DNA of 37,714 nucleotides from Candidatus Woesearchaeota archaeon (GCA_018302165.1 JAGWAA010000003.1:1-37714); one strand, 5' to 3'. Numbered from the stretch's first letter, positions 60-37,714 are shown. Notes: generated by a model from the sequence alone, not told the origin. Numbers and translations are program-made.

Positions 60-743
60 CTAAATTTTTTGTAACCAACCTTTTTTAGGTTCAAAGAAAT
101 CTCCATTCTTTTTCAAAGCATCAACAACTTCCTCAAGTTTTCTTTCTGTAATACCTTTCTCAAAAACTTTTGGTTTCAAATCTTCTTCTATACTAATTGG
201 CCCACCCATTTTCTCTTCGGATAACTGATACAAAATATCTCTTACATCTAAAATCCTTCCTCTGGAAGAAGCACTAATTCCTGTTGTCATCCGATCAATA
301 TCAATTTTTCCAGTCTCAGGATCAATACCAATATCATTCATACATCCTCTTAATAACGCAATTGCACGTAAAGCATCATCTTGATCAACAGTCTGTTTCA
401 ATTTAATTTTAGCAGAAGCTTCAGCTAATCTAACTACTGCTTCTAACTGTCTCGCAGAAATAGGAATTGGTTTAATAGAAGAATCTCCTTCAGTACCAGT
501 TGCACGTAAACTAACATAAAAATTCTTAATTGTTTCAATAGCTTCCTCAGTTAATTTAGGAAAAATTTTCTGTCTAGTATATGCAATATATTTTCTTAAT
601 ATTTTCCCATCAATTTCTGGCGGCAAATCTTTGTAAGCATGCGATTCCAAAACTTTTGACGCAATGTTTGCATCCATTTCTCTATTTGGTAAATCTCTCA
701 TTACAAAAATTAAATCAAATCTATTAATCAACGCAGGAGGCAA
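60..743 (-). CDS. mcm: MCM replicative helicase, C-terminal fragment (arginine-finger region, sensor 2, winged-helix tail). The frame is open upstream to 785 but has no ATG.
   Basis: Translation (GYFDPFTPIPNQID)LPPALINRFDLIFVMRD... matches the MCM block that follows sensor 1 (canonical NLPPxxLSRFDLIF). It is on the same strand as, and contiguous with, the N-terminal MCM ORF, but in another frame. Confidence 0.85.
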   Translation of the reverse strand: MPPALINRFDLIFVMRDLPNREMDANIASKVLESHAYKDLPPEIDGKILRKYIAYTRQKIFPKLTEEAIETIKNFYVSLRATGTEGDSSIKPIPISARQLEAVVRLAEASAKIKLKQTVDQDDALRAIALLRGCMNDIGIDPETGKIDIDRMTTGISASSRGRILDVRDILYQLSEEKMGGPISIEEDLKPKVFEKGITERKLEEVVDALKKNGDFFEPKKGWLQKI

Positions 744-3700
744 ATCAATCTGATTCGGAATCGGTGTAAATGGATCAAAATAGCCTCATGCAGCGCTGAA
801 GTATCTTCTTTAGAAATTTTATCCATTTCATCAAGAACTAAAATTCCTTTGTCTGCTAAAACCATCGCACCTGCTTCTAATGCCCACCCTCTAAGAAATT
901 CATCTTTAACAACAGAACAAGTATTATGTACAAGAACTCCATCAACAACAAAATTATGTGAATCATCAATGGTTAAATCATAAACATAATCATAAGGTGT
1001 ATCAATCATTTCAATATTAACTATCTTCTCCCAAAAGATATCACTCTTAGCAAGAACTTTAATTTCTTTAAAATCAGAACCTTTAACTTTATCAAGAATT
1101 TTCAGTAAACCTTCTCTAGAAAAGTTTTTATGCCAACCAAACTTTCTTAATGAATAATTATTCTTTTGGAGCAAACTTTTTAATCGAACAGAAATTCCTG
1201 GAACAATATCAATATTTGTATCACTCTTTGTTTTAATTTTCAAAAGTTCTTCTAATTTTTTTTTCTTATTCTGATTCCTCAAAGGAATAAACTCATAAAA
1301 TTTTTTAAATTCATCTAAACTTCTTATTTCTAAAATATATTTTTTATGTTTTCCTATAATTTTAGAATTTACAGAAGGATTTCTAATCCTCAAAGAAACA
1401 TGAATATTATATCTCAACAAAACACTCTGAAGCTGTCTTGCAAGTTTTTCAGAACAAGTTGTCAAATCAATACAAGAAGAGCCTTCTCCTTTTTTTCTAA
1501 CATAAACTGAGCCATCTGTATCATATAATCCAGCAATATAATGAGCCAAAAGATTATTTTTCATATGCAACAAATCTTCAGATAAATAAATTTTATTAGA
1601 TTTCGGAGACAAAACTAACCCTAATCCAAAAAGAACTTCTCCAAGAATCTTTGAAGAACACCTTGTTTGTTTAGGTCTCATTTTATTTCCTTCAGTAGAA
1701 TAATAATGTAATCTAAATTGATTCGTTAAGATTTTTTGGAATTCAGAATGTAAATCCTCCAACGAATTTGAAAAACCAATTTCATAAGTAGAATTACTCT
1801 TTCTAATATGACCATCACCTGCAACTAACCCTGCAAGATACAAAACTTCATCATTCAAAACTAATGGAAGACTATGATTTTTTCCATTATATAAACTAAC
1901 CTTAACCACTTTATCATGATAATCTAATCCTACAACATTAGAAATTTTAATCAAATCCCTTAACTTTATATTTCCTCTTGCAAAATCATTAACCCAATGA
2001 TGATATAATTGATTTTCAGAAATTTTCAAATCTTTGCAAGCTTTTCGTAAAGAACCATATTTCTTAACTAACAAATTAGCAATTTCCTTAACAAAAGGTT
2101 TAACATTATGAACAACAGGATTAGAATTAACAAAATCAAGTATATATTTTTTATCTATAACACCACCAATTAAAGTTCTAGGAGTAGCAACATATTCTCC
2201 AACCTTTAACTCATTACTCTTCCTCCAATAAGTAAACCCCTCTTCAATAAAAAAAAGACTTGTATTCCCAGTTAATTCTATTTGCTTGCCACTTGAAAGA
2301 GTAATCTTAAACATTTTTCTTGGAGCCTCAAGTTTCCAAAGAGCATTAGGTTTTTTAGAATGAATTTTTAATTTATTAGACATACTTTGTATTTTCACAT
2401 CTGAAATATTTTCTTCTTTCCAAACTCCCGGTTTAAATTCAATATTATTCACTAATCTTTGTTCAACTAAATCTTGTATTTTAGGCATCCCACCAGGATT
2501 AGTTAATACAAAACTATTCGGACTCACACACAATCCAGCTCCTGACGCAGATCGTCCTGCAACATACCTCGCTTTCGGAGCAGTCTTTTCTACAAAGGTT
2601 AACATCTGACTTTTTCCACAATTATGTGAAACAATCCCATTTGCAATAAACATATGACTTTCAGGGACTTCAAAATCATAAACATCTTTTACTCCAGCAA
2701 AATCAATTGAAACAATTTTCTCCCATTCTTGATAACCTTTCCTTTTTCTTTCTCTTTGATTAATTACTTCTTTAACTTTCAATAAAGCATTATTCTTTTT
2801 TTCAGAAACAAATCCAATATTCTCGATAAATAAATTCATATCAAAAGCTCTGCGTATACATAAATTATCTTCAACTATTCTAGATTGTATCCCAAAATAT
2901 AAAAGCAATAATTGAACATCTCTAAGCAATTCACTATATCTTGATTTCAATTGAATAGAAGTTCTTCCTCTGCCATTACCAAATGCACAACCATCAGCTT
3001 CAAATAACCATTTCAAAAACGATGCAACAACAGATTTAGGACTTTGAAAAATACTTTGTGGTACTTTTTTTTCAGAAAGAAAACTTAAAGATTGAGCAAT
3101 ATGTTTACTATTAGCTTCAATTAAATGAACTTGTTGAGTAGAAATAATTTGCCTTGTACTTCCATCAACATTTTGAATCATACTAATCTTAGGATCTCTT
3201 GAAGAAAAATAAGGCTCTATTTCAAAACAAGTTTTCCATAGATTTGTAATTGGTATAATTAATTCTTTTTCTGCATCACTAACATAACAAGTAATCCTAT
3301 ATCCATTAGGATGCACATTACCATCACCAATAATATATCCATACAATCCTGCAAGTTCAGGAGTAACCTCTTTAGGTAATTTAACATCTTTCAAAAGCCC
3401 ACTACTTTTTTTTACAAAACTAAAATTAGTTTTCACATAATCCTTAACATTATTTTTAATTTCAGGCATAACACGCAATTCTTCTCTTAAAGTAAAACAA
3501 TCCGCTCTCTTCCACCCTTCCTTGCTCAACAATGGATGATCCAAAGTACATATCAATTGCTTTCCAGTTTCAGTAACAACTTTCAAAACCAATTTTTGCT
3601 CATATTTATGAAACTTTTTTGCATAATCAAATCCTTTCTCATTCACACAAGCCAATTTAACATTAATTTTTTCTAAATGCTTCTTCCCTAAATCTTCAAT

Positions 3701-4723
3701 CTTCTTCATTCCAAAATTAGAAGTTGCAACTTGCGAATCCCCAACAATACATCCTGGATCACCAACTAACAATACATGCAAATCTCCTCTAACAATAGTC
3801 TGATCTGCTTTAGTCTTTCTAATTCCACCAAATAACTGTAAAAGAATAGCTTCTTTAATTTTATCATGCCCATAAATCGACGGAGAAATACTTGCAACTA
3901 ATCTCTTATAAATATTTTTATCTTTAGCCAACTTTTTAATTTCAACTTCATCCTCAGGAGTAATATTAATTTCAGTATAATCTTCCTCAACAGGCTCAAC
4001 AAAATTCCCATTAACTCCTAAATCAAATCTTGTTGAAGTCCCACCAGTTTTAGTTGGCACAGGAATTTCAAACATCAATCCATTAACAATTATCCTAGTC
4101 CCTGGTGTCGTTCGCTTCTCCATTTTTGGTTCAACTAAATCTTCTCTTAAAAATATCTGCATTCTTTTAGGTTGTGCCCCACCCTCTAAATTTTCTGGAG
4201 ACTCTTCAATAACAATTCTTTGAACATCTACTAATTCTTTGGATAATAATCTAAACTTTCCTTTCCTTCCACAAGAACATCTTGAAGGTTCTCTAAAATT
4301 TGAATCAACCTGTGGCATTGTAATTGTATTCCCACATGATGGACACTCAAATTTCGCACTTACTGCTTGCGGTCGAACTTCAGAACTCTGCCTAATGATT
4401 CCTTCCATTGCAATAAACTTATTCAGATGCTTACTTCTCAAATTTTTAATATAAATTTCCTGAGACTTAGGCAACCCTTTAAACCTCACTCTAAACCCTT
4501 TCTTAACATCAAACTGCTCTAAAGCCATCTCAGCAGCCTTCAAAGTCTCTTCTGGCTCCTCTAACAACTGGTCAGCTAATTTAGGATCAAATTTCGTCAA
4601 CTCAAAAAAATCTAAAACCAAAAAATTAAGCCCTTTAGACAGATTTTCATGCAATTGCTTCTGATAACTCTGTTCGACAAATTCCTGAAATTTTTCTATT
4701 TGATCAGCTGCATCAATGGTCAT
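728..4723 (-). CDS. mcm: MCM replicative helicase, N-terminal domain plus AAA+ core up to Walker B, interrupted by two inteins. It ends in an out-of-frame tail after ...SALHEA.
   Basis: N-domain Zn ribbon CPSCG..CSCG. Walker A is split as LLVGDPG|intein|CGKSQML. GRSASGAGL|intein|TCSVVKDEF follows, then Walker B ILVLDEMDK. ATGA start/stop overlap with the upstream ORF. Confidence 0.9.
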   Translation of the reverse strand: MTIDAADQIEKFQEFVEQSYQKQLHENLSKGLNFLVLDFFELTKFDPKLADQLLEEPEETLKAAEMALEQFDVKKGFRVRFKGLPKSQEIYIKNLRSKHLNKFIAMEGIIRQSSEVRPQAVSAKFECPSCGNTITMPQVDSNFREPSRCSCGRKGKFRLLSKELVDVQRIVIEESPENLEGGAQPKRMQIFLREDLVEPKMEKRTTPGTRIIVNGLMFEIPVPTKTGGTSTRFDLGVNGNFVEPVEEDYTEINITPEDEVEIKKLAKDKNIYKRLVASISPSIYGHDKIKEAILLQLFGGIRKTKADQTIVRGDLHVLLVGDPGCIVGDSQVATSNFGMKKIEDLGKKHLEKINVKLACVNEKGFDYAKKFHKYEQKLVLKVVTETGKQLICTLDHPLLSKEGWKRADCFTLREELRVMPEIKNNVKDYVKTNFSFVKKSSGLLKDVKLPKEVTPELAGLYGYIIGDGNVHPNGYRITCYVSDAEKELIIPITNLWKTCFEIEPYFSSRDPKISMIQNVDGSTRQIISTQQVHLIEANSKHIAQSLSFLSEKKVPQSIFQSPKSVVASFLKWLFEADGCAFGNGRGRTSIQLKSRYSELLRDVQLLLLYFGIQSRIVEDNLCIRRAFDMNLFIENIGFVSEKKNNALLKVKEVINQRERKRKGYQEWEKIVSIDFAGVKDVYDFEVPESHMFIANGIVSHNCGKSQMLTFVEKTAPKARYVAGRSASGAGLCVSPNSFVLTNPGGMPKIQDLVEQRLVNNIEFKPGVWKEENISDVKIQSMSNKLKIHSKKPNALWKLEAPRKMFKITLSSGKQIELTGNTSLFFIEEGFTYWRKSNELKVGEYVATPRTLIGGVIDKKYILDFVNSNPVVHNVKPFVKEIANLLVKKYGSLRKACKDLKISENQLYHHWVNDFARGNIKLRDLIKISNVVGLDYHDKVVKVSLYNGKNHSLPLVLNDEVLYLAGLVAGDGHIRKSNSTYEIGFSNSLEDLHSEFQKILTNQFRLHYYSTEGNKMRPKQTRCSSKILGEVLFGLGLVLSPKSNKIYLSEDLLHMKNNLLAHYIAGLYDTDGSVYVRKKGEGSSCIDLTTCSEKLARQLQSVLLRYNIHVSLRIRNPSVNSKIIGKHKKYILEIRSLDEFKKFYEFIPLRNQNKKKKLEELLKIKTKSDTNIDIVPGISVRLKSLLQKNNYSLRKFGWHKNFSREGLLKILDKVKGSDFKEIKVLAKSDIFWEKIVNIEMIDTPYDYVYDLTIDDSHNFVVDGVLVHNTCSVVKDEFLRGWALEAGAMVLADKGILVLDEMDKISKEDTSALHEAILIHLHRFRIRLICLLR
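923..2530 (-). mobile_element. Intein 2 in MCM after ...SGAGL, 536 aa, with a LAGLIDADG homing endonuclease domain
   Basis: Starts CVSPNS, LAGLIDADG motifs LYLAGLVAGDGHI and HYIAGLYDTDGSV, ends GVLVHN followed by Thr+1 (TCSVVKDE). The block B position reads LTGNT, so it has no His. The end codon AAT was checked at 923-925. Confidence 0.8.
2621..3751 (-). mobile_element. Intein 1 in the MCM Walker A loop, 377 aa, with a LAGLIDADG homing endonuclease domain
   Basis: Starts CIVGDS (Cys1), block B TLDH, LAGLIDADG motifs LAGLYGYIIGDGNV and FLKWLFEADGCA, ends GIVSHN followed by Cys+1. Removing it restores GDPG-CGKSQ. Coordinates were counted from the ORF translation and checked against the codons at 3749-3751. 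Confidence 0.8.
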
Positions 4724-14207: not shown

Positions 14208-14780
14208 ATGACAGATTCTACAATTTGGACAGAAAAATATCGACCCCAAACTTTTGAGGACATTAAAGGCCAAAAAAAAATAGTTGAAAGAATAAAAGCA
14301 TTTGTAGATCAACGAAATATGCCCCATATTCTTCTTGCTGGACCCGCAGGGGTTGGTAAATCAACAATTGCATTAGTTATAGCAAAAGAACTTTTTAAAG
14401 AAACTTGGAAAAATAATTTTTTAGAATTAAACGCATCTGATGACAGAGGGATTGATGTTGTTAGAAACACAATTAAAGAATTTGCAAAAACAAGAGCTTT
14501 AGGAAATGTTCCATTCAAAATTATTTTCTTAGATGAATGTGACTCTTTAACCAAAGAAGCCCAACAAGCACTTCGTAGGACTATGGAAAACTTTGTTACT
14601 TCTACTAGATTTGTTTTATCCTGTAACTATAGCAGTAAAATAATAGATCCAATTCAAAGTAGATGCACAGTTTTTAGATTCAAACCATTAACAAAAGAAG
14701 ATATTGAAGATTATGTAATGAAAATTGCAACCACAGAAAATCTTAATGTAATATTAGCCATGGTGATGTTAGAAAAATAA
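14208..14780 (+). CDS. rfcS: replication factor C small subunit, N-terminal fragment (frame broken after ...TTENLNV)
   Basis: WTEKYRPQTFEDIKGQ, Walker A LAGPAGVGKS, LELNASDDRGID, Walker B IIFLDECDSL, SRC motif IQSRC. Confidence 0.85.
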   Translation: MTDSTIWTEKYRPQTFEDIKGQKKIVERIKAFVDQRNMPHILLAGPAGVGKSTIALVIAKELFKETWKNNFLELNASDDRGIDVVRNTIKEFAKTRALGNVPFKIIFLDECDSLTKEAQQALRRTMENFVTSTRFVLSCNYSSKIIDPIQSRCTVFRFKPLTKEDIEDYVMKIATTENLNVILAMVMLEK

Positions 14781-15130
14781 CAAACGTCTTACAAAGTTGT
14801 TCTTCAATTGATCACAACATCACTGAAAATTTGGTTTATTCATTAGTTTCCGCGGCAGAACCAAAAGAAATTCAAGATATTTTATTATTAGCAATTAACA
14901 AAAGATTCATCCAATCAAGAGGTTTATTACTAGACACAATGCTTAAACATGGTTTATCAGGTTTAGATATCCTAAAACAAATTCAAAAAGAAACTATGGA
15001 AATAGATTCCATCTCTGATGAAAAAAGAATCGAATTATTAGATAAATGTGGAGAGATAGAATTTAGAATGGTTGAAGGCGCAGATGAATTCATACAACTA
15101 GAAGCATTATTAGCTTACTTTGCAAAATGA
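14762..15130 (+). CDS. rfcS: replication factor C small subunit, C-terminal fragment. It has no start codon of its own. The frame is open from 14747; the ORF track starts at TTG 14831.
   Basis: GDVRKITNVLQS (the GDxRxxxNxLQ sensor-2 motif) ... FRMVEGADEFIQLEALLAYFAK matches the canonical RFC-S C-terminus. Confidence 0.8.
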   Translation, partial: GDVRKITNVLQSCSSIDHNITENLVYSLVSAAEPKEIQDILLLAINKRFIQSRGLLLDTMLKHGLSGLDILKQIQKETMEIDSISDEKRIELLDKCGEIEFRMVEGADEFIQLEALLAYFAK

Positions 15131-21602: not shown

Positions 21603-21639
21603 AGGGATTAAAATTTTTAGAGATTATAAAAACCTTTCT

Positions 21640-21667
21640 GAAAATTTTCCGGATTTTCTTAGTAAAC
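21640..21667 (+). promoter_or_regulatory. Copy of the shared promoter-proximal motif GAAA-N3-TTYCGG-W2-TTTTCTTA-N-TAAAC
   Basis: gaaaattttccggattttcttagtaaac, ~70 nt upstream of ATG 21739. Closely similar strings lie at 33466-33494, 34988-35016 and, inverted, at 36727-36749. Confidence 0.45.
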
Positions 21668-21738
21668 CTTTTTTAAGCCAATTTTTCTAAATTAAACTGA
21701 AAGTCTAGACTTCTTCAAGGCATTGGGAGGTGCTTAAT

Positions 21739-22230
21739 ATGTTAGAGAACTTAGTGCGAACTGCAATAAGAAGAGAAGATTTAGACATTGATTACAATGG
21801 CTACACAGCAACAAACCATTTTGGATGGGAATACCAAGTTTCAATTGAACAAAGCGAATCTTGTCTTGAACCTTCTTATATCAAACCATTACAAAAAAAG
21901 ATTGTATTAAAAACAGGTTGTGAAGTATCAGATCAAGGCCATTATTTATCTCATGCATTAGCCCACGAATTAGGCCATTCAGAAACATTCTTTGTAACAA
22001 CACCCATATTAGCAATAATTGCTTTTGCAGGTTTAAGACATGCATACAAAGAACATTCAATTAAAACATTCCTTTATACTTGCGCAACTGTAGCCTCATA
22101 TAGATTAGTTGTTGACGAAGCCGCAGCAGAAATTGCAGCATCTGTAAATCATGGAACAATAATGATGGATTGGAGAGGCGAATTAACAAGCTTAGTAAAT
22201 TTTAGTAGAAATGTCATTGATTTATTTTAA
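21739..22230 (+). CDS. hypothetical membrane protein with an HExxH motif (putative metallopeptidase)
   Basis: ALAHELGHSE, followed by hydrophobic helices. GGGAGGTG lies 7 nt before ATG 21739; the ORF track starts at GTG 21730. Confidence 0.45.
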   Translation: MLENLVRTAIRREDLDIDYNGYTATNHFGWEYQVSIEQSESCLEPSYIKPLQKKIVLKTGCEVSDQGHYLSHALAHELGHSETFFVTTPILAIIAFAGLRHAYKEHSIKTFLYTCATVASYRLVVDEAAAEIAASVNHGTIMMDWRGELTSLVNFSRNVIDLF

Positions 22231-32864: not shown

Positions 32865-33209
32865 CTAGAGCACCCTTCGTATTTTTGTAAACTTCAGCAC
32901 CACTTTTCCAGGTTCATCAAGATTTAAGCTTATCACTTTTGCAGTAGATATTTCCTCGAACCTAATTATTTCCTTTGGTATAGAAACAATCCACGAATTC
33001 CCCACTTCCCTTAGCTTTACTTGAAAATCTTTATTTCTGAGTAATATATATTCTTGATAATCTCTCATATCTAATGGATGATACCATAATTTTTTACACT
33101 TAGGACAATGCCAAGCCCTGATTCTAAATCCATCTTTCGAAACTTGCGTCTTCTCTGTTTTTCCATTGCACTGATCGCACAACATCACCGAATCAAATAT
33201 ATCTTTCAT
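32865..33209 (-). CDS. zinc-ribbon plus SpoVT/AbrB-like domain protein
   Basis: CDQC...CPKC ribbon, then [13 protein letters not shown] (swapped-hairpin AbrB signature). Its TAG stop overlaps the GGAGG in front of cdc48. Confidence 0.55.
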
Positions 33210-33296
33210 TTTCGTATATACGGAAAAGTATACATAACTTGTATATAAATCTTGTGGCTACAAAAGTTTTAATAAAACTAATAATAATTTAATATT

Positions 33297-33440
33297 ATGT
33301 TACCATTAAAGTTTATTTTAGGGATAGTATTCATCATAGTAAGTATATTTTTATATTTAACAAAAAACGGATTTGCATATTTAATAGCAATAATTTTAGA
33401 CGCAATAAGCATAGAATTAATTTTCACAGCTGAATTCTAA
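33297..33440 (+). CDS. possible 47-aa membrane peptide (hand-found)
   Basis: ATG 33297, MLPLKFILGIVFIIVSIFLYLTKNGFAYLIAIILDAISIELIFTAEF, TAA 33438-33440 abutting repeat copy A. Confidence 0.3.
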   Translation: MLPLKFILGIVFIIVSIFLYLTKNGFAYLIAIILDAISIELIFTAEF

Positions 33441-33502
33441 CAGTTCAATCGCCACTGAGGCTCCCGAAAGATTTCCGGATTTTTCTTATAAACATTTATT
33501 AA
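33441..33502 (+). repeat. Island repeat copy A (62 bp)
   Basis: cagttcaatcgccactgaggctcccgaaagatttccggatttttcttataaacatttattaa; 59/62 identical to copy B. Confidence 0.9.
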
Positions 33503-33547
33503 ACCAACCAAAGATATATAAACTAAAAAAGTAAAAGGAGAATAAAG

Positions 33548-33793
33548 ATGGTTGAAACAATATCTCTTCAGGATTTATCATTAGAAAACAAAGAATTTTT
33601 ATTAAAAGAATTAGGCTTTGCTTCCGATGGTATTTATGTTTTAGATTCCGAAGGAGAAAAGGTAATTGACAATTATATCAACGAACCTGTAAAGATAGAT
33701 AATATGCTCATTCTTCCAGGTAGCACAATCATTATTGATAACAACCCATTAAGTATAGCCTCCTATTTACAGGGGCATCCAGATGTCTTCTGA
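33548..33793 (+). CDS. hypothetical protein (cassette 1, gene 1)
   Basis: 81-aa ORF with AAGGAG upstream; overlaps the next ORF by 11 nt. Confidence 0.5.
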   Translation: MVETISLQDLSLENKEFLLKELGFASDGIYVLDSEGEKVIDNYINEPVKIDNMLILPGSTIIIDNNPLSIASYLQGHPDVF

Positions 33794-34460
33794 TGAAATA
33801 GAAAACAATATAATCAAAGGGATAATTTTTTATAGCGAGGATAAAATAAAAGAATTAGTCAGAAAATTTCAAGAACGTGAAATAGCATTCATCCAAAAGA
33901 GAGAAACAATAGACTTAGTTAAAGAACAAATAAAAAGTGGCGAATGGAATCTTCTCAGTAAATATATTCGAAAGAATGAACTTAAAATACTTGTTCAAAT
34001 GGGCTTAACATTAAGAAGATTAGAAGACAAAAAAGACTTTAATTCATTACAAGATTTAAGAGATAAAATAGTTTACAAATTTGGTGAAGATGGCCTGCAT
34101 ATTTCTCAGTTTGTCCAAAATAAAATCTTAACTGAATTTCTCGCAAGTTACATTTCAAACCAAAGAAATTTAGAAGACTTAATTAGAAATATAGAAAAGA
34201 TATTAAATAATTTAGAAAAACAAGTTATTTTTATAAAAGCAGATGATAATGTAGATAAAATTTTAGAAAAATTAAACATAAAACTAAATGCTAATGAACC
34301 AGATTCATTTATTATTTTTGCAAAAGAATCAGCAATTAAAAATGCAGAAAAAATAAACCTTAGATTACAAAAGATTAAAGATTTTAATTATAAAATTGAA
34401 ATTAAACAAGAAAAGAGACAATTATTAATCTTAATGTTTAAGATTAAAAGTATTGATTAA
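33783..34460 (+). CDS. hypothetical helical protein (cassette 1, gene 2)
   Basis: 225-aa ORF, Lys/Glu/Ile-rich, predicted helical. No known motif. Confidence 0.5.
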   Translation: MSSDEIENNIIKGIIFYSEDKIKELVRKFQEREIAFIQKRETIDLVKEQIKSGEWNLLSKYIRKNELKILVQMGLTLRRLEDKKDFNSLQDLRDKIVYKFGEDGLHISQFVQNKILTEFLASYISNQRNLEDLIRNIEKILNNLEKQVIFIKADDNVDKILEKLNIKLNANEPDSFIIFAKESAIKNAEKINLRLQKIKDFNYKIEIKQEKRQLLILMFKIKSID

Positions 34461-34471
34461 AACTGCAAAAA

Positions 34472-34858
34472 CTACATACAATTTTTATCAGAACAATAAA
34501 TCGCTACATTCAATGCCTTAGATTTATTATAAGCATCTGTAGCAAGAGCTCTAAAATTTGGATCCATTACTTTAGTTCCGAAGAATCTATAAGCATTATG
34601 AGCATTCTCACATCTTTCCAAATAACCCTCAGCATTAAAAAGAACCCAATCCATCATCCCACCAGATCCAATAATAGGTTTTCTAACAATACAATCTAAA
34701 ACCCCGTCATTATCAACATCCAACAATTCAAGTGGATTAGCAGTTGGCCCTTCAATTATTACACTATTCCAATCAGGTATAGGAACAATTTCAATTTCTT
34801 TATCACCACTACAAGCTACCATTAAAGGTACAACAGTCAATAAGTGTCTTATATTCAT
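34472..34858 (-). CDS. hypothetical lipoprotein with a DxDxDG-like motif
   Basis: Signal peptide/lipobox VVPLMVACSG; LDVDNDGVLDC. TTTATAAA is centred ~26 nt upstream of the ATG, which suggests a leaderless mRNA. Confidence 0.5.
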   Translation of the reverse strand: MNIRHLLTVVPLMVACSGDKEIEIVPIPDWNSVIIEGPTANPLELLDVDNDGVLDCIVRKPIIGSGGMMDWVLFNAEGYLERCENAHNAYRFFGTKVMDPNFRALATDAYNKSKALNVAIYCSDKNCM

Positions 34859-34892
34859 AATCTCTGTTTTTAATAACTAATTTATAAACATT

Positions 34893-35006
34893 CCGCAGCC
34901 CTCGCGGCGACTGAGCGACTTAGCCGAAGGCTTCCTTTGATCAAACTTTAGAAAAGTTTGTACAGTTCAATCGCCACTGAGGCTACCGAAAGATTTTCGG
35001 TTTTTT
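34893..35006 (+). ncRNA. Candidate structured RNA or structured intergenic element R1 (strand uncertain)
   Basis: Locally GC-rich stretch in AT-rich DNA. Hairpins: ccgc-N7-gcgg, agcc-gaa-ggct, caaactt-tagaa-aagtttg, cag-N11-ctg, ccgaaa-gat-tttcgg followed by a T6 run. Its 3' part is repeat copy B. Confidence 0.3.
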
Positions 35007-35024
35007 CTTATAAACATTTATTAA
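34963..35024 (+). repeat. Island repeat copy B (62 bp)
   Basis: cagttcaatcgccactgaggctaccgaaagattttcggttttttcttataaacatttattaa. Confidence 0.9.
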
Positions 35025-35054
35025 TCCTAAAACATAAGATTTAAATACCAAAAA

Positions 35055-35600
35055 ATGGACAACTATAAACATAAATGGACAGCACTTCAAAATAGTATAT
35101 TTAGATTCCTTTGTATAAAGACAGGAATGAGCACAAACTTAAGAGGTCTAGCAAAATCATTAAAAGTATCACCAACAGCAGTTTCAAAGTCTCTCGACAA
35201 ATTAGAAAAAGAAGGTCTAATCAAAATAAACAAATCAAAAACTATGAACCTTATGTCTATTGAATTCAATCGTGATAATCAAAAAGCAATTAATTTCAAA
35301 AGAATTGAAAACGTAAAAATTATTTATGAGTCAAATTTCTTAGAAACTTTAGAAAATCTATTCCCTGGATGCAGTATAATCCTTTTCGGTAGTTATTCAT
35401 TAGGTGAAGATACCATCAACTCAGATATTGACATAGCCATAATAGGAACTAAAGGTAAAGAAATAGAATTAACAAAATATAATAAACTATTCGAAAGGAA
35501 AGTAACAATAAACTTCTATAAATCCTGGTCAGATATCCACAAGCACTTAAAAGAAAATATTCTAAGAGGAATAGTATTGCATGGAGGAATAGAATTATGA
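35055..35600 (+). CDS. wHTH-fused minimal nucleotidyltransferase (MNT-type antitoxin candidate)
   Basis: LAKSLKVSPTAVSKSLDKLEKEGLI wHTH, then the NTase signature GSYSLGEDTINSDIDIAI. Confidence 0.7.
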   Translation: MDNYKHKWTALQNSIFRFLCIKTGMSTNLRGLAKSLKVSPTAVSKSLDKLEKEGLIKINKSKTMNLMSIEFNRDNQKAINFKRIENVKIIYESNFLETLENLFPGCSIILFGSYSLGEDTINSDIDIAIIGTKGKEIELTKYNKLFERKVTINFYKSWSDIHKHLKENILRGIVLHGGIEL

Positions 35601-36040
35601 AATACTTTGAAGATTTCGTTTCAGAAGGAATAATCAAAAAAACTTCTATAAATAAATCCAAAGCTAAATTTCTAATAGAAGAAACTGAAAGAACCTCAAG
35701 AAGTCTGTTCAAGCGCATTGAAGCTCTGGGTATTGATGATGATAATGCAAACTCAATCACAAAAGATTGCTATGATATAATCATGGAACTAATCCGTGCC
35801 ACACTACAACTTTCAGGCTATTCTTCATCAGGTGCTTATGCCCATGAAGCCGAAATCTCTTTCTTAAGAAAATTAAAGTTCTCTGAATCAGAAATAGTAT
35901 TCATAAACGACTTGCGTATAAATAGAAATGGAATAACTTACTATGGTAAAATCTTAAACAAGGATGATGCAGAAAGAATAGTTTCATTTACAAAAAAGAC
36001 TTATCCCAAGTTAAAGAAATTAGTTATAGAAAAAATATAA
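35597..36040 (+). CDS. HEPN-domain protein (toxin candidate of an MNT/HEPN pair)
   Basis: ATGA overlap with the NTase gene. Helical 147-aa protein with LRINRNGITYYG at the position of the HEPN R-x(4-6)-H motif, with Tyr in place of His. Confidence 0.55.
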   Translation: MKYFEDFVSEGIIKKTSINKSKAKFLIEETERTSRSLFKRIEALGIDDDNANSITKDCYDIIMELIRATLQLSGYSSSGAYAHEAEISFLRKLKFSESEIVFINDLRINRNGITYYGKILNKDDAERIVSFTKKTYPKLKKLVIEKI

Positions 36041-36075
36041 CAGTTCAATCGCCACTGAGGCTCCGAAAAAGATTC
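36041..36075 (+). repeat. Island repeat copy C (partial)
   Basis: The first 24 nt, cagttcaatcgccactgaggctcc, are identical to copy A. Similarity then degrades (gaaaaagatt) and is lost. Confidence 0.85.
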
Positions 36076-36130
36076 AATTAAATAACCAAAAACTTTATAT
36101 TACATTTTAGCATTACAAATAATACTAACT

Positions 36131-36204
36131 GCTAGGGAGTTCACTGTGTAAAGTCTCAGGGGGCAAACTAGGGCAGCGGCACTCTTCGTAGTGCCCTTTA
36201 GTAC
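36131..36204 (+). ncRNA. Candidate structured RNA or element R2 (strand uncertain)
   Basis: GC-rich gctagggagttcactgtgtaaagtctcagggggcaaactagggcagcggcactcttcgtagtgccctttagtac with hairpin ggcac-N8-gtgcc. TTTATATT lies ~30 nt upstream and a T6 run lies immediately downstream. Confidence 0.25.
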
Positions 36205-36696
36205 TTATTTTTTCAAGAATTTTTCAAAATCATCTAATCTGATAGTAACATAAGTTTTCATTTTATTTTTAGAATCCTTAGCCATTAAATAAGCATAATT
36301 ATCCGCAAAAGAATTTTTATCTAACTTTTTAAATTGACAATCTAAAATATTCAATTTTAATAATCCTTTCAAGAAATAATTCAAATTATTGACAATTTCA
36401 TTATTATGCCCATAAAAATCTCTACAAATATTTAAAGAAACATTTTTTATTTTAATAGACTTAAATAAATAATAAATAACAATAGAATAAATTCTAATTT
36501 GAAGATTAACTTTCCCTTGAACAGATTTTTTATATTTATACAATTCTTGACCATACTTAGAAGCTATAATTTGAACGAGTTTATTATTAAACTTAAAACC
36601 TTTAATCAGTTTTCCATCTTTACTAGCAATACAAATAACATAATTCTTACTAAGAATATCTTTACCACTAACATCAATATCAAATTCCATTAACAA
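36205..36696 (-). CDS. hypothetical protein
   Basis: 163-aa ORF. An inverted copy of the shared promoter motif lies ~35 nt upstream of its ATG. Confidence 0.45.
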   Translation of the reverse strand: MLMEFDIDVSGKDILSKNYVICIASKDGKLIKGFKFNNKLVQIIASKYGQELYKYKKSVQGKVNLQIRIYSIVIYYLFKSIKIKNVSLNICRDFYGHNNEIVNNLNYFLKGLLKLNILDCQFKKLDKNSFADNYAYLMAKDSKNKMKTYVTIRLDDFEKFLKK

Positions 36697-36726
36697 TAAC
36701 TGAAAAAACCTTTTTAAAAAGTTTGA

Positions 36727-36749
36727 GAAGAAAATTCCGAAAATCTTTC
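36727..36749 (-). promoter_or_regulatory. Inverted partial copy of the shared promoter-proximal motif
   Basis: The reverse complement reads gaaagattttcggaattttcttc; 20/22 identical to the corresponding part of copy B. Confidence 0.45.
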
Positions 36750-36800
36750 AACTTTTTTCACTAAACCTTTTTGAACCAAATATTTCTAATTTAGAATTAA

Positions 36801-36918
36801 GTCCGTGTTGCCTAATCCGGTATGGCAGATGTCTGAAAAAGCCCCAGTTCACAGCTGAGGCATCTTGAGACAACATCGTCTCGGGAGAGACTTCCGGGTT
36901 CAAATCCCGGCACGGACT
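36801..36918 (+). tRNA. Intron-containing tRNA with a class II (Leu/Ser-like) long variable arm; anticodon not confidently assignable
   Basis: Acceptor GTCCGTG/CACGGAC. D arm GCC-TAATCCGGTAT-GGC. Anticodon stem GATGT...ACATC separated by 40 nt (7-nt loop plus ~33-nt intron). Variable hairpin GTCTC-GGGA-GAGAC. T arm CCGGG-TTCAAAT-CCCGG. Confidence 0.75.
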
Positions 36919-36923
36919 CACAT

Positions 36924-36940
36924 TGTCGCCTAATCTGGTA
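36924..36940 (+). other. Degenerate duplicate of the tRNA 5' region (positions 6-22)
   Basis: tgtcgcctaatctggta versus tRNA tgttgcctaatccggta (15/17). It starts 6 nt after the tRNA 3' end and is followed by AT-rich DNA. Confidence 0.5.
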
Positions 36941-37031
36941 ATTATTAATTAATCCTAATTAATTTAAATATTTTCCCTAAAAATCTTTGTAAAGGTTTGC
37001 TTTAAATATAATTAATTCTTTCAAAATAACC

Positions 37032-37714
37032 ATGCAAAAGCTCCTTTCCAAATCCAAATACCTTAATGGCCTCCAATGCCCTAAACTATTATGGATTTCT
37101 GTTAACGACAAAACAAAAATGCCAGAAGTATCAGAATCCACCCAGAAATTATTCGATCAAGGCCAAATCGTCGGCGAATATGCAAAGAAATTATTCCCTG
37201 AAGGCATCAATATCCCAGTCAAAGACTTCAACAAAAACTTAAATGATACAAAAGAACTTTTAACCAAAAACAAACCACTGTTCGAACCCGCATTCTTAAT
37301 CAACAGACTTTACTCTAGAGCAGATATTTTAGAACCAACAAACAATGGCTGGAATATCATAGAGGTCAAAAGCTCCACTGAAGTCAAAGAAGTCAACATC
37401 CAAGATGTCGCATTCCAAAGATATGTTTACGAGAAAGCAGGCTTGAAGATTGACAGATGTTATTTATTACACATTAACAACAAATATGTTAGACACGGCG
37501 ATATTAACCCAAAAGAATTATTCACTAAAGAAGATATTACTATTCCTGTTAACGAAGAACTAAAATTTGTAGATGATAGAGTTATAGAAATGCTAGAAAT
37601 TATTGATGGCAAAGAACCTAATACAACCATCAGCAAAAACTGCAAAGAACCTTATGAATGCCAAATGAAAGAATTATGCTGGTCCTTCTTACCCAAAGAA
37701 AACTCAGTCTTCGA
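37032..37714 (+). CDS. DUF2779/Cas4-like PD-(D/E)xK nuclease, 3'-truncated by the window end (hand-translated; not in the ORF track)
   Basis: MQKLLSKSKYLNGLQCPKLLWISV..., RADILEP...WNIIEVKSS (D...ExK), FQRYVY (QxxxY), C-terminal Cys cluster CKEPYECQMKELC. Confidence 0.7.
   Translation, partial: MQKLLSKSKYLNGLQCPKLLWISVNDKTKMPEVSESTQKLFDQGQIVGEYAKKLFPEGINIPVKDFNKNLNDTKELLTKNKPLFEPAFLINRLYSRADILEPTNNGWNIIEVKSSTEVKEVNIQDVAFQRYVYEKAGLKIDRCYLLHINNKYVRHGDINPKELFTKEDITIPVNEELKFVDDRVIEMLEIIDGKEPNTTISKNCKEPYECQMKELCWSFLPKENSVF

What the first reader, a model, noticed from the sequence alone, without database searches (positions are those of the whole stretch)
33441..36075. Repeat-delimited gene cassettes next to a tRNA: three copies of a ~62-bp unit, two starting right after stop codons
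The unit cagttcaatcgccactgaggct[c/a]ccgaaagattt[c/t]cgg[a/t]tttttcttataaacatttattaa occurs at 33441 and at 34963 (59/62 identical). Its first 24 nt recur at 36041. In copies A and C the unit begins immediately after a TAA stop of a plus-strand ORF (33438-33440 and 36038-36040). The intervals are 1,522 bp and 1,078 bp. The first holds an overlapping pair of unknown genes plus an opposite-strand lipoprotein gene. The second holds a wHTH-MNT/HEPN pair. Each unit bundles a hairpin plus T-run (terminator-like) with a TATA-like box (promoter-like). Each cassette is therefore delivered with its own insulation and expression signals. The array ends ~700 bp from an intron-bearing tRNA gene. This resembles modular cassette accretion, in the manner of an integron or hotspot, but I see no attC-type cores and no integrase or transposase in the window. 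I regard it as the best candidate here for an undescribed cassette-acquisition or recombination system.
Basis: partly seen in the sequence, partly recalled or inferred. Interest (0 to 1): 0.7.

Follow-up and report, generated by a model that had tools for sequence, protein, structure and literature searches.

The report
Hairpin repeats bounding archaeal gene modules
The three repeats are real and belong to a previously undescribed family of tiny stem-loop elements that mark the borders of swappable accessory-gene modules (toxin-antitoxin pairs, secreted proteins, a tRNA) in Woesearchaeota archaea, most likely as recombination sites, though no recombinase was found.

Summary
The 22-nt core occurs exactly three times in the window (0 expected by chance). 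A covariance model finds a fourth, inverted, diverged copy at 34891-34934 and none in the 33 kb of core genes.

It is a 4-bp stem that co-varies (7 stem types), a near-invariant 9-nt loop TCA(A/G)(T/G)CG(C/T)C, and an invariant GGCT.

Copies occur in three Woesearchaeota species and many groundwater contigs, at the edges of toxin-antitoxin or defence modules. Between strains the neighbours on either side of a copy are re-assorted:
- One strain lacks cassette 1 precisely.
- Three different modules follow the same "HEPN" gene.
- One copy is a chimera that switches at the loop edge.

Several copies drag along 18-47 codons of the 3' end of the neighbouring DUF2779 nuclease gene.

Canonical integron attC features are absent, and no recombinase lies in any held locus of this lineage. 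The unit's second half is an ordinary upstream region.

Best reading: att-like recombination junctions of an accretion island, with the mechanism unproven.

The parts
33424..33468 (+). Element copy A. Stem 33441-33444 / 33454-33457 (CAGT/ACTG), loop 33445-33453 (TCAATCGCC), tail AGGCT 33458-33462.
   Evidence: Covariance model 45.5 bits; exact core. Homology of strain L021 to the window starts at 33439.
33463..33505 (+). Second half of unit A: imperfect palindrome CCCGAAAGATTTCCGG, T-run, and TATA-like CTTATAAAC. A generic upstream region, not specific to the family.
   Evidence: 94% identical to unit B. Related sequences at 21636-21694 and 36732-36789. TATA-like box lies at -62 from the ATG, against a usual distance of about -30.
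33548..34858 (.). Module 1: 81-aa (33548-33793, +) and 225-aa (33783-34460, +) gene pair, plus a 128-aa lipobox protein (34472-34858, -).
   Evidence: ORFs. Absent precisely in strain L028. The 81+225 pair recurs in four other genomic neighbourhoods.
34891..34934 (-). Inverted, GC-rich copy G. On the minus strand it reads TCGC-TCAGTCGCC-GCGA-GGGCT (stem 34918-34915 / 34905-34902), directly upstream of the TATA box of the lipoprotein gene.
   Evidence: Covariance model 38 bits. Compensatory stem. Strain L023 carries a chimeric allele that switches at the loop edge.
34942..34960 (.). Palindrome CAAACTTTAGAAAAGTTTG between the head-to-head copies G and B. It recurs beside elements in other loci with compensatory changes, and it follows DUF2779 in outgroup L111.
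34946..34990 (+). Element copy B. Stem 34963-34966 / 34976-34979, loop 34967-34975, tail 34980-34984. Second half of the unit runs 34985-35027.
   Evidence: Covariance model 47.4 bits; exact core.
35055..36040 (+). Module 2: wHTH plus MntA-like nucleotidyltransferase (35055-35600) and its overlapping 147-aa partner (35597-36040; HEPN identity not verified).
   Evidence: Pfam NTP_transf_2 and MarR, NCBIfam MntA. Left neighbour varies (L028) and right neighbour varies (L006, L008).
36024..36068 (+). Element copy C. Stem 36041-36044 / 36054-36057, loop 36045-36053, tail 36058-36062. Its second half is degenerate.
   Evidence: Covariance model 43.2 bits. Homology of L006 ends at 36065 and of L008 at 36066.
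36205..36690 (-). 161-aa gene of unknown function, part of the segment between copy C and the tRNA.
   Evidence: This segment is replaced in L006 and L008.
36705..36790 (+). Palindrome-like AAAACCTTTTTAAAAAGTTTG (36705-36725) plus 'second half'-type sequence (36736-36790) upstream of the tRNA, without the hairpin. It looks like an unoccupied version of the site.
   Evidence: (I1/I2).
36801..36918 (+). Intron-bearing tRNA (anticodon GAA, long variable arm). Its intron hairpin resembles the element (CAGTTCA-CAG-CTGAGGC).
37032..37714 (+). 5' part of the DUF2779 gene (Cas4-like PD-(D/E)XK domain plus predicted 3'-5' exonuclease). In the extended contig L020 another element follows its stop codon directly, and remnants of its 3' end accompany other copies.
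   Evidence: PMC3985635.

Best explanation
The repeats are copies of a roughly 45-nt intergenic element. Its essential part is a minimal stem-loop (any 4 complementary base pairs, loop TCA(A/G)(T/G)CG(C/T)C, then GGCT). The element serves as the junction at which small accessory gene modules are inserted, lost and exchanged in a genomic island of this Woesearchaeota lineage.

The island starts right after the core genes (CDC48 and the 114-aa gene). It runs past the tRNA and the DUF2779 nuclease gene.

Shown:
- The element family exists, and its pairing is kept by compensatory change.
- It is confined to the island.
- Strain-to-strain re-assortment of the DNA on either side has breakpoints within a few bases of the hairpin.
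- One module is precisely absent in one strain.
- One hybrid copy switches partner at the loop edge.
- Blocks of 'DUF2779 3' end plus element' are duplicated on the far side of inserted modules.

Inferred:
- Exchange is catalysed at the hairpin by a recombinase encoded elsewhere in the genome or on the incoming DNA (an attachment-site-like mechanism, with serial accretion followed by decay), and not only by general homologous recombination.
- The hairpin is read as folded single-stranded DNA or a protein-stabilised cruciform.

The second half of the 62-nt unit is ordinary upstream or promoter-region sequence that was co-duplicated in copies A and B.
For: Family and structure:
- A regex on the full signature gave 64 sites in 147 kb of related DNA, against 0.0 in 50 shuffles.
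- Selecting on loop and tail only, 12 of 14 distinct hairpins are fully paired, using 7 different stems. By contrast, 0 of 66 chance matches in viral contigs are paired.
- RNAalifold independently predicts only this helix, with all 4 pairs showing double changes.

Distribution:
- The covariance model finds 4 copies in the window, all within 33424-36068. The next best hit scores 9 bits.
- Six copies lie within 6.6 kb of the extended contig L020.
- Exact cores occur in 3 Woesearchaeota species representatives and 9 metagenome contigs.
- In L016 the element sits between Rad50/Mre11/peptidase genes and an AbiEii toxin-antitoxin pair.

Re-assortment at the element:
- L028 joins window 33272-33440 to 34962-36115 through one unit.
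- L021 differs from the window left of 33439.
- L006 and L008 differ from the window right of 36065/36066. L006 carries a DUF4258/DUF2283 pair there.
- L001 has a UvrD-like helicase module.

Other evidence:
- The chimeric allele in L023 switches at the 5' edge of the loop.
- DUF2779 gene-end remnants accompany copies: L004 3866-3934 (23 aa, 78%, E = 2e-5), L020 14464-14517 (18 aa), and L038 (at least 47 aa plus a complete element, 86.5% over 192 nt). An intact element directly follows the DUF2779 stop codon.
- A classical integrase and att-repeat island exists in a related genome, L031.
Against: - No integrase, transposase or HUH gene lies in the window or in any held locus that contains the element. 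The IS66 transposase in L003 is an ordinary insertion sequence.
- Breakpoints at the edges of a repeat are also what general homologous recombination between dispersed repeats would give.
- A 4-bp stem is too small for known recombinase core sites.
- Copies lie in both orientations.
- The 81+225-aa module and DUF2779 sit in variable neighbourhoods in more distant genomes that have no such element, so the element is not needed for module mobility in general.
- The hairpin core behaves as a discrete 25-39-nt insertion or deletion at some sites, which fits a small mobile element as well.
- All evidence is comparative, from metagenome assemblies. No excision products or circular junctions have been seen.
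Confidence: 0.42

Rival explanations
1. The element is a structured intergenic signal with its own function: a protein-bound RNA or DNA hairpin acting as insulator, 3'-end stabiliser or regulatory site. Because it is repeated, it passively serves as a substrate for ordinary homologous recombination, so modules are shuffled as a by-product, as with bacterial REP/BIME, ERIC or Correia repeats.
For: - Pairing maintained by compensatory change implies a function for the fold itself.
- About half of the copies lie just after a same-strand gene, tRNA or 23S rRNA end: window A and C, L006, L003b, and L019 76 nt after the 23S rRNA and before a T-run.
- Junctions at repeat edges are expected under plain homologous recombination.
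- No recombinase was found.
Against: - About half of the copies are not in any sense-strand 3' position. They sit in divergent promoter regions or antisense, for example window B and G, L003a, L016, L004a.
- The element is absent from about 35 core intergenic regions in the window.
- The L023 chimera switches within only 9 nt of shared identity, which is short for homologous recombination.
- Gene-end duplications point to insertion events.
- The hairpin is thermodynamically marginal (folding term -2.3 kcal/mol).
Confidence: 0.27
2. The hairpin core is itself a tiny non-autonomous mobile element (REP- or MITE-like, about 25-40 nt). It inserts at a preferred target between a palindrome and a promoter-proximal motif. 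Cassette borders coincide with it only because such targets lie between transcription units.
For: - Sites with and without the hairpin exist in otherwise homologous sequence. L111 has the palindrome followed directly by GAAAGATTTTC, where window copy B has the 25-nt core in between.
- The L020 remnant lacks the 39-nt extension-hairpin block that E5 and the L038 allele have.
- Window 36705-36790, upstream of the tRNA, has the palindrome and motif but no hairpin.
- Copies occur in both orientations and as head-to-head pairs.
Against: - There are no target-site duplications or terminal inverted repeats.
- Copy number is low and confined to the island.
- Several copies were clearly spread by segmental duplication together with DUF2779 coding sequence, not by transposition.
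- No RAYT, IS200 or other candidate transposase was found.
- No copies occur on viral contigs.
Confidence: 0.15
3. The units are decayed attachment-site copies derived from an intron-containing class II tRNA gene (intron hairpin plus 3' exon). They were left by repeated integration of elements whose tyrosine integrases target that tRNA, as in classical tRNA-linked islands.
For: - The island adjoins a tRNA.
- The element matches the tRNA intron at CAGTTCA...CTGAGGC, 14 of 14 flanking positions.
- L003a aligns with the neighbouring tRNA-Leu intron and 3' exon (28 of 36 positions, p = 0.002 in 500 shuffles).
- In L003 two perfect 42-nt copies flank a tRNA-Leu.
- A genuine tRNA-Asp att-repeat island with an integrase exists in L031.
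Against: - Most unit-versus-tRNA alignments are not significant (p = 0.04-0.4, 18 tests).
- Scans of 241 million metagenome records and 185,579 species genomes found no tRNA gene containing the exact core.
- The partial copies lie upstream of the tRNA, although they would represent its 3' part, which is the wrong side for the canonical scheme.
- Relics would decay, not keep pairing by compensatory change.
Confidence: 0.08
4. The region is an integron-type cassette array without its integrase (a CALIN), of the kind reported in archaea including Nanoarchaeota, and the repeats are attC sites.
For: - Archaeal integrons and CALINs exist. Their cassettes are enriched in toxin-antitoxin and signal-peptide proteins, and attCs within a genome resemble each other (PMC9668308).
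- Module sizes here are 1.1-1.5 kb.
- Repeats directly follow stop codons in A and C.
Against: - No RYYYAAC...GTTRRRY pair lies 45-145 nt apart on either strand of 33200-37000.
- No imperfect palindrome of attC size spans the units.
- Orientation is mixed.
- Modules contain genes on both strands with their own promoters.
- No IntI is present.
Confidence: 0.03
5. It is a simple local duplication with no wider significance.
For: Units A and B are 94% identical over 66 nt and only 1.5 kb apart.
Against: - The same core occurs in three species and many contigs in unrelated contexts.
- Diverged copies keep the fold.
- Content varies between strains at the copies.
Confidence: 0.01

Closest known systems
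Integron gene cassettes and attC sites, including archaeal integrons and CALINs (Ghaly et al. 2022, PMC9668308)
   Same: - Small modules, often toxin-antitoxin or secreted proteins, each bounded by a recombination-site-like repeat whose fold is conserved while the stem sequence varies.
- Arrays can lack an adjacent integrase.
- Repeats within one genome resemble each other.
   Different: - No AAC/GTT core sites.
- The fold is a 4-bp stem with a conserved 9-nt loop, not a 55-140-nt imperfect palindrome with a variable loop.
- Copies lie in both orientations.
- Modules carry genes on both strands with their own promoters.
- No IntI is present.
Islands built by serial integration at a tRNA or at the 3' end of a gene by tyrosine integrases (example found here: L031, tRNA-Asp, 63-nt direct repeats; from my own knowledge also the tycheposon islands of Prochlorococcus)
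   Same: - The island lies next to a tRNA.
- Partial duplicates of a target gene's 3' end (DUF2779) sit on the far side of inserted modules.
- A repeated att-like unit occurs at each junction.
- Defence and toxin-antitoxin cargo.
- Decay of the mobility genes.
   Different: - The repeated core is not part of the tRNA.
- In the nearest outgroup it is not part of the DUF2779 flank either.
- The core is a hairpin kept by compensatory change.
- No integrase occurs in any locus that has the element.
REP/BIME (REPIN) elements and their RAYT transposases in bacteria
   Same: - Short intergenic hairpins, often just after stop codons.
- Both orientations, and inverted pairs.
- Presence/absence as discrete small indels.
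- Hotspots of rearrangement.
   Different: - The stem is only 4 bp, and the conserved part is the loop, not the stem.
- A few copies clustered in an accessory island, not hundreds dispersed.
- No RAYT/IS200-type gene was found.
- Archaeal host.
pdif modules of Acinetobacter plasmids (Xer-dependent; my own knowledge)
   Same: - Discrete modules, including toxin-antitoxin pairs, bounded by short recombination sites in alternating orientation.
- The recombinase is encoded elsewhere in the genome.
   Different: dif-type sites have two 11-bp arms around a 6-bp spacer. Here only 4 bp are symmetric, around 9 nt, with no extended dyad.
Origin hairpins of HUH Rep proteins (invariant nonanucleotide loop, co-varying stem; my own knowledge)
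   Same: An invariant 9-nt loop flanked by a stem whose sequence varies but stays complementary.
   Different: - The stem is much shorter.
- There are multiple chromosomal copies between genes.
- No Rep/HUH gene is nearby.

Membership tests
Integron attC / CALIN | Inverted core sites R'' (RYYYAAC) and R' (GTTRRRY), 45-145 nt apart | tested here: not met
   No such pair on either strand of 33200-37000.
Integron attC / CALIN | Imperfect palindrome of about 55-140 nt that folds into a long bulged hairpin | tested here: not met
   RNAalifold on 25 copies with flanks predicts only a 4-bp helix. No local inverted repeat spans the units.
Integron attC / CALIN | All sites in one orientation; an integron integrase (IntI) adjacent or elsewhere | tested here: not met
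   One of four window copies is inverted. There is no PF00589 protein in the window or the close-lineage loci. The rest of the genome could not be tested.
Integron attC / CALIN | Score above threshold with the HattCI / IntegronFinder attC models | not testable with these tools
tRNA- or gene-end-targeting integrative element (tyrosine integrase) | Direct repeats identical to part of the target tRNA or gene bounding the insert | tested here: inconclusive
   - DUF2779 3'-end remnants of 18, 23 and at least 47 codons accompany copies.
- The core is not part of the adjacent tRNA.
- Similarity to the tRNA intron is borderline.
- No repeat of the tRNA itself occurs in the island.
tRNA- or gene-end-targeting integrative element (tyrosine integrase) | Integrase gene next to one att site | tested here: not met
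   None in the window or in L020, L006, L015, L003, L016 or L019. Present in the unrelated island of L031.
REP / RAYT | Many dispersed copies per genome and a cognate RAYT (IS200-like) gene | tested here: inconclusive
   No copies occur in 33 kb of core genes, and no RAYT is in the held loci. Whole genomes were not available.
Xer/dif-type site | Two roughly 11-bp arms in dyad symmetry around a 6-bp spacer | tested here: not met
   Symmetry is limited to 4 bp around 9 nt; the flanks are not complementary.
MITE / insertion-sequence end | Terminal inverted repeats with target-site duplication | tested here: not met
   The flanks of 25 copies show no duplication or inverted termini.
CRISPR array | Regularly spaced repeats with 25-50-nt spacers | tested here: not met
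   Spacings are 1522 and 1078 nt, with genes in between.
Any Rfam family | Match to a curated covariance model | tested here: not met
   Only the tRNA matched in 33200-37100 at E up to 5.

The most novel reading that the evidence does not exclude
A hairpin-dependent gene-cassette capture and exchange system specific to a Woesearchaeota (DPANN) lineage. It would be functionally analogous to integrons or Xer-dependent modules but unrelated to them: a minimal stem-loop with a fixed 9-nt loop is the recombination site, recognised as folded DNA by a still unidentified recombinase or nuclease acting in trans. The adjacent Cas4-like/exonuclease DUF2779 protein, whose 3' flank holds a native copy, is one untested candidate partner.
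Probability: 0.18. Interest if true: 0.85.

Novelty: new variant of a known kind. Interest (0 to 1): 0.6.

Why it matters
DPANN archaea have tiny genomes, and very little is known about how they acquire and shuffle accessory genes. This study defines a compact, testable sequence signature (a covariance model of 45 positions) that marks the borders of toxin-antitoxin, defence and secreted-protein modules. It also shows strain-level exchange at those borders.

If a dedicated enzyme acts on the hairpin, this would be a new type of site-specific cassette system in archaea. If not, it is the first REP-like structured repeat family described for this group, and a marker for finding variable islands in fragmented metagenome bins.

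Tried and rejected
- **C/D-box or H/ACA small RNA, T-arm or D-arm tRNA fragment, BHB splicing motif, ORB origin box, CRISPR-like repeat.** I considered these by reading the sequence and rejected them. The required boxes or geometry are missing, and Rfam gives no match.
- **An extended structure beyond the 4-bp helix.** Not supported by RNAalifold.
- **The hairpin as a conserved 3' flank of DUF2779 in general.** Rejected: it is absent after DUF2779 in five other genomes.
- **DUF2779 as a fixed chromosomal anchor.** Rejected: in L031 it is cargo of a 13-kb element integrated at tRNA-Asp.
- **Viral or plasmid copies of the element.** None found.
- **A repeat of the window's own tRNA elsewhere in the island.** None found.
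- **Lineage-specific analogue repeats around the 81+225-aa module in L112.** None convincing.
- **The GC-rich stretch 36131-36200 as a small RNA.** No fold signal, z = 0.15.
- **Metagenome-assembly chimeras as the cause of the mosaic junctions.** Unlikely. Exact identity between units is at most about 25 nt. The L028 junction has its own sequence. The main arrangement is seen in more than ten independent assemblies.
- **Five GC-rich bacterial hits to the 20-mer in the metagenome scan (L002, L007, L009, L011, L014) and two in the genome scan (L017, L018).** These are chance matches inside genes.


Full report
**1. The observation**

The 22-nt core CAGTTCAATCGCCACTGAGGCT occurs at 33441, 34963 and 36041 on the plus strand. 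Nowhere else in the window matches, even with three mismatches, and none of 100 shuffles gave a match. Copies A and B share 66 nt at 94% identity. Copy C shares about 27 nt. The spacings are 1522 and 1078 nt. A and C begin directly after TAA stop codons.

The tRNA at 36801-36918 is real. Rfam scores it 39.9 bits, and ARAGORN with introns allowed gives a 33-nt intron.

The window is a complete 37,714-nt contig of a Candidatus Woesearchaeota MAG. Its first 33 kb hold core genes: MCM with an intein, TBP, an aminoacyl-tRNA synthetase, RFC, FEN1, HerA, PolB and CDC48. No recombinase is present.

**2. The core elsewhere**

An exact 20-mer scan of JGI metagenomes returned nine AT-rich archaeal contigs plus five chance hits inside GC-rich bacterial genes. 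The scan of species-representative genomes returned three different Woesearchaeota MAGs, one exact copy each, plus two bacterial chance hits.

The contexts differ:
- In L019 the core lies 76 nt after the 23S rRNA 3' end and before a T-run.
- In L003 two perfect 42-nt copies flank a tRNA-Leu and are followed by an IS66 element.
- In L016 it lies between Rad50/Mre11/peptidase genes and an AbiEii toxin-antitoxin pair.

**3. What is conserved**

A profile search found diverged copies. Reading them showed that all share one architecture: four bases, the loop TCA(A/G)(T/G)CG(C/T)C, the reverse complement of the four bases, then NGGCT. The GC-rich stretch at 34891-34934, just upstream of copy B, is such a copy on the minus strand (TCGC-TCAGTCGCC-GCGA-GGGCT).

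The statistical support is as follows:
- A scan for the full signature gave 64 sites in 147 kb of related DNA, against 0.0 in 50 shuffles.
- That scan required pairing, so I repeated the selection on loop and tail only. Of 14 distinct hairpins, 12 are fully paired, with seven different stems (CAGT/ACTG, TCGC/GCGA, CGGT/ACCG, CGCC/GGCG, CACC/GGTG, GGCT/AGCC, GGCT/AGTC). Chance gives about 2% per site.
- As a negative control, none of 66 chance matches to loop and tail in viral contigs is paired.
- All four pairs show changes on both sides, sliding the partner destroys pairing, and RNAalifold predicts this helix and nothing more.

A covariance model finds exactly four copies in the window at 38-47 bits. 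With filters off, the next best hit scores 9 bits. The element is therefore confined to the accessory island.

**4. The second half of the 62-nt unit**

Most genes in the window have a TATA-like box about 30 nt before the start codon. The unit's CTTATAAAC lies at -62 and -47, and better-placed TATA boxes lie just downstream of the unit. Related 'GAAA-N3-TTTC plus TATA-like' sequence also precedes an ordinary gene at 21740, the tRNA (36736-36790), and DUF2779 in another genome. This half is generic upstream sequence that was co-duplicated in A and B. Its terminator and promoter roles are plausible but not shown.

**5. Strain variation at the elements**

More than ten independent assemblies show the window's arrangement. 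The variants are:
- **L028** joins window 33272-33440 directly to 34962-36115 through one unit, so module 1 is precisely absent.
- **L021** is homologous to the window only from 33439 rightwards.
- **L001** has the 114-aa gene, then other DNA, a copy of the element, and a UvrD-like helicase.
- **L006** ends its homology at 36065. It continues with a complete unit, a DUF4258/DUF2283 pair, another copy, a membrane protein and a truncated DUF2779, with no tRNA.
- **L008** ends its homology at 36066 and continues differently.

Each module has thus been seen with different neighbours, and the switch points lie within a few bases of the hairpin. At the position of the inverted copy, strain L023 carries a chimera. 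Its extension and 5' stem are of another subfamily, while its loop, 3' stem and tail are those of the window. The switch lies at the 5' edge of the loop, and the stem is unpaired. The identity between units is too short, and the L028 junction too individual, for these to be assembly chimeras.

**6. Link to DUF2779**

The extended contig L020 shows the island continuing beyond the window:
- The DUF2779 gene (485 aa) is followed directly by a copy of the element.
- Next comes a second MNT/HEPN pair on the minus strand.
- Then an inverted copy and a palindrome.
- Then an 18-codon remnant of the DUF2779 C-terminus.

In L004/L015 a 23-codon remnant (78% identity, E = 2e-5) precedes a copy. In L038 a remnant of at least 47 codons plus a complete element (86.5% identity over 192 nt) lies at the far side of the inserted MNT/HEPN pair. 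The conserved 5' extension of many copies (ATCGCTTCGCTC...) is the native 3' flank of that gene. Such displaced gene ends are the usual trace of insertions at a gene-end attachment site.

DUF2779 combines a Cas4-like PD-(D/E)XK domain with a predicted 3'-5' exonuclease (PMC3985635). It is widespread in Nanoarchaeota. In four other genomes its neighbours are restriction-modification systems, a conjugative gene cluster and an integrase island. In L031 it is cargo of a 13-kb element bounded by 63-nt repeats of the tRNA-Asp 3' end. So it is a frequent island gene and not a fixed anchor.

None of these more distant genomes has the hairpin. The 81+225-aa pair also moves between neighbourhoods there without it.

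**7. Complications**

The hairpin core sometimes behaves as a discrete indel:
- In L111 the palindrome and the promoter motif are adjacent, whereas window copy B has the 25-nt core between them.
- The same unoccupied arrangement lies upstream of the window's tRNA.
- The L020 remnant lacks the 39-nt block present in its L038 allele.

The hairpin also resembles the intron hairpin of neighbouring class II tRNAs, but the statistics are borderline, and no tRNA with the exact core was found.

Orientation relative to genes follows no rule. About half of the copies are in a sense 3' position and half are not.

**8. Comparison with known systems**

- **Integron attC.** Canonical core sites are absent, there is no attC-sized palindrome, orientation is mixed and no IntI is present. 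This holds even though archaeal integrons with similar cargo are known (PMC9668308).
- **dif-type, MITE, CRISPR and Rfam families.** The element does not fit any of them.
- **Closest analogues in logic.** These are serial-integration islands, Xer-dependent pdif modules, integron cassettes and REP/BIME repeats.

**9. Verdict**

I conclude that the element is a new, structured junction repeat of an accretion island. The most likely role is as an att-like recombination site (0.42). The main rivals are a structural element that is recombined passively (0.27) and a small mobile hairpin (0.15).

Noticed in passing
window 36801-36918: The tRNA has anticodon GAA (Phe) under the canonical intron position but a long Leu/Ser-type variable arm. 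Strain variants (L010, L012) carry an acceptor-stem mismatch. It is missing altogether from strain L006. It may be an island-borne or unusual tRNA.
   Followed up: partly
window 728-4723 (minus strand): The MCM helicase gene is interrupted by an intein with a LAGLIDADG homing endonuclease.
   Followed up: no
window 14208-15130: The RFC small subunit appears split into two ORFs (AAA domain at 14208-14780, Rep_fac_C at 14831-15130). This could be a frameshift, a split gene or a sequencing error.
   Followed up: no
L031 1272-14583: A roughly 13-kb integrated element is bounded by a 63-nt direct repeat made of the tRNA-Asp(GUC) 3' end and its flank. A tyrosine integrase sits next to the tRNA. DUF2779, a NucS-like gene and two N6/N4 methylases are cargo, and an extra 13-nt partial repeat lies at 1423.
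   Followed up: partly
L032 13347-20465: Conjugation-type genes (TraC-like ATPase, TrbC/T4SS pilin, TraG-like P-loop, NikA-like) lie next to DUF2779 on a 122-kb Woesearchaeota-type contig. This may be an integrative conjugative element in a DPANN archaeon.
   Followed up: no
window 35597-36040: The 147-aa partner of the MntA-like nucleotidyltransferase has no detectable HEPN signature in Pfam, NCBIfam or PDB sequence searches. It may be a divergent or different toxin.
   Followed up: partly
window 33548-34460; L112 6946-7858; L114 9766-10537: The overlapping 81-aa and 225-aa gene pair is a conserved two-gene module of unknown function. It is found in at least four different defence-island neighbourhoods, with only about 20 relatives in 5.8 billion proteins. 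It is a candidate new toxin-antitoxin or defence pair.
   Followed up: partly
window 34942-34960; L006 6852, 8836; L008 30, 82; L020 14446; L111 2833-2856: The palindrome CAAACTTTnnnAAAGTTTG recurs beside the elements with compensatory changes at its outer pair (C...G or G...C). It also follows DUF2779 in an outgroup that lacks the hairpin.
   Followed up: partly
L003 181-513: A tRNA-Leu(UAA) gene with a 35-nt intron is flanked by two perfect 42-nt direct repeats containing the hairpin. An IS66-family transposase with its DUF2080 partner follows immediately.
   Followed up: partly
window 36131-36200: A GC-rich stretch in an AT-rich intergenic region after copy C, downstream of the 161-aa gene's stop codon. 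It has a local GGCACT/AGTGCC hairpin, but the overall fold is not better than shuffles.
   Followed up: partly
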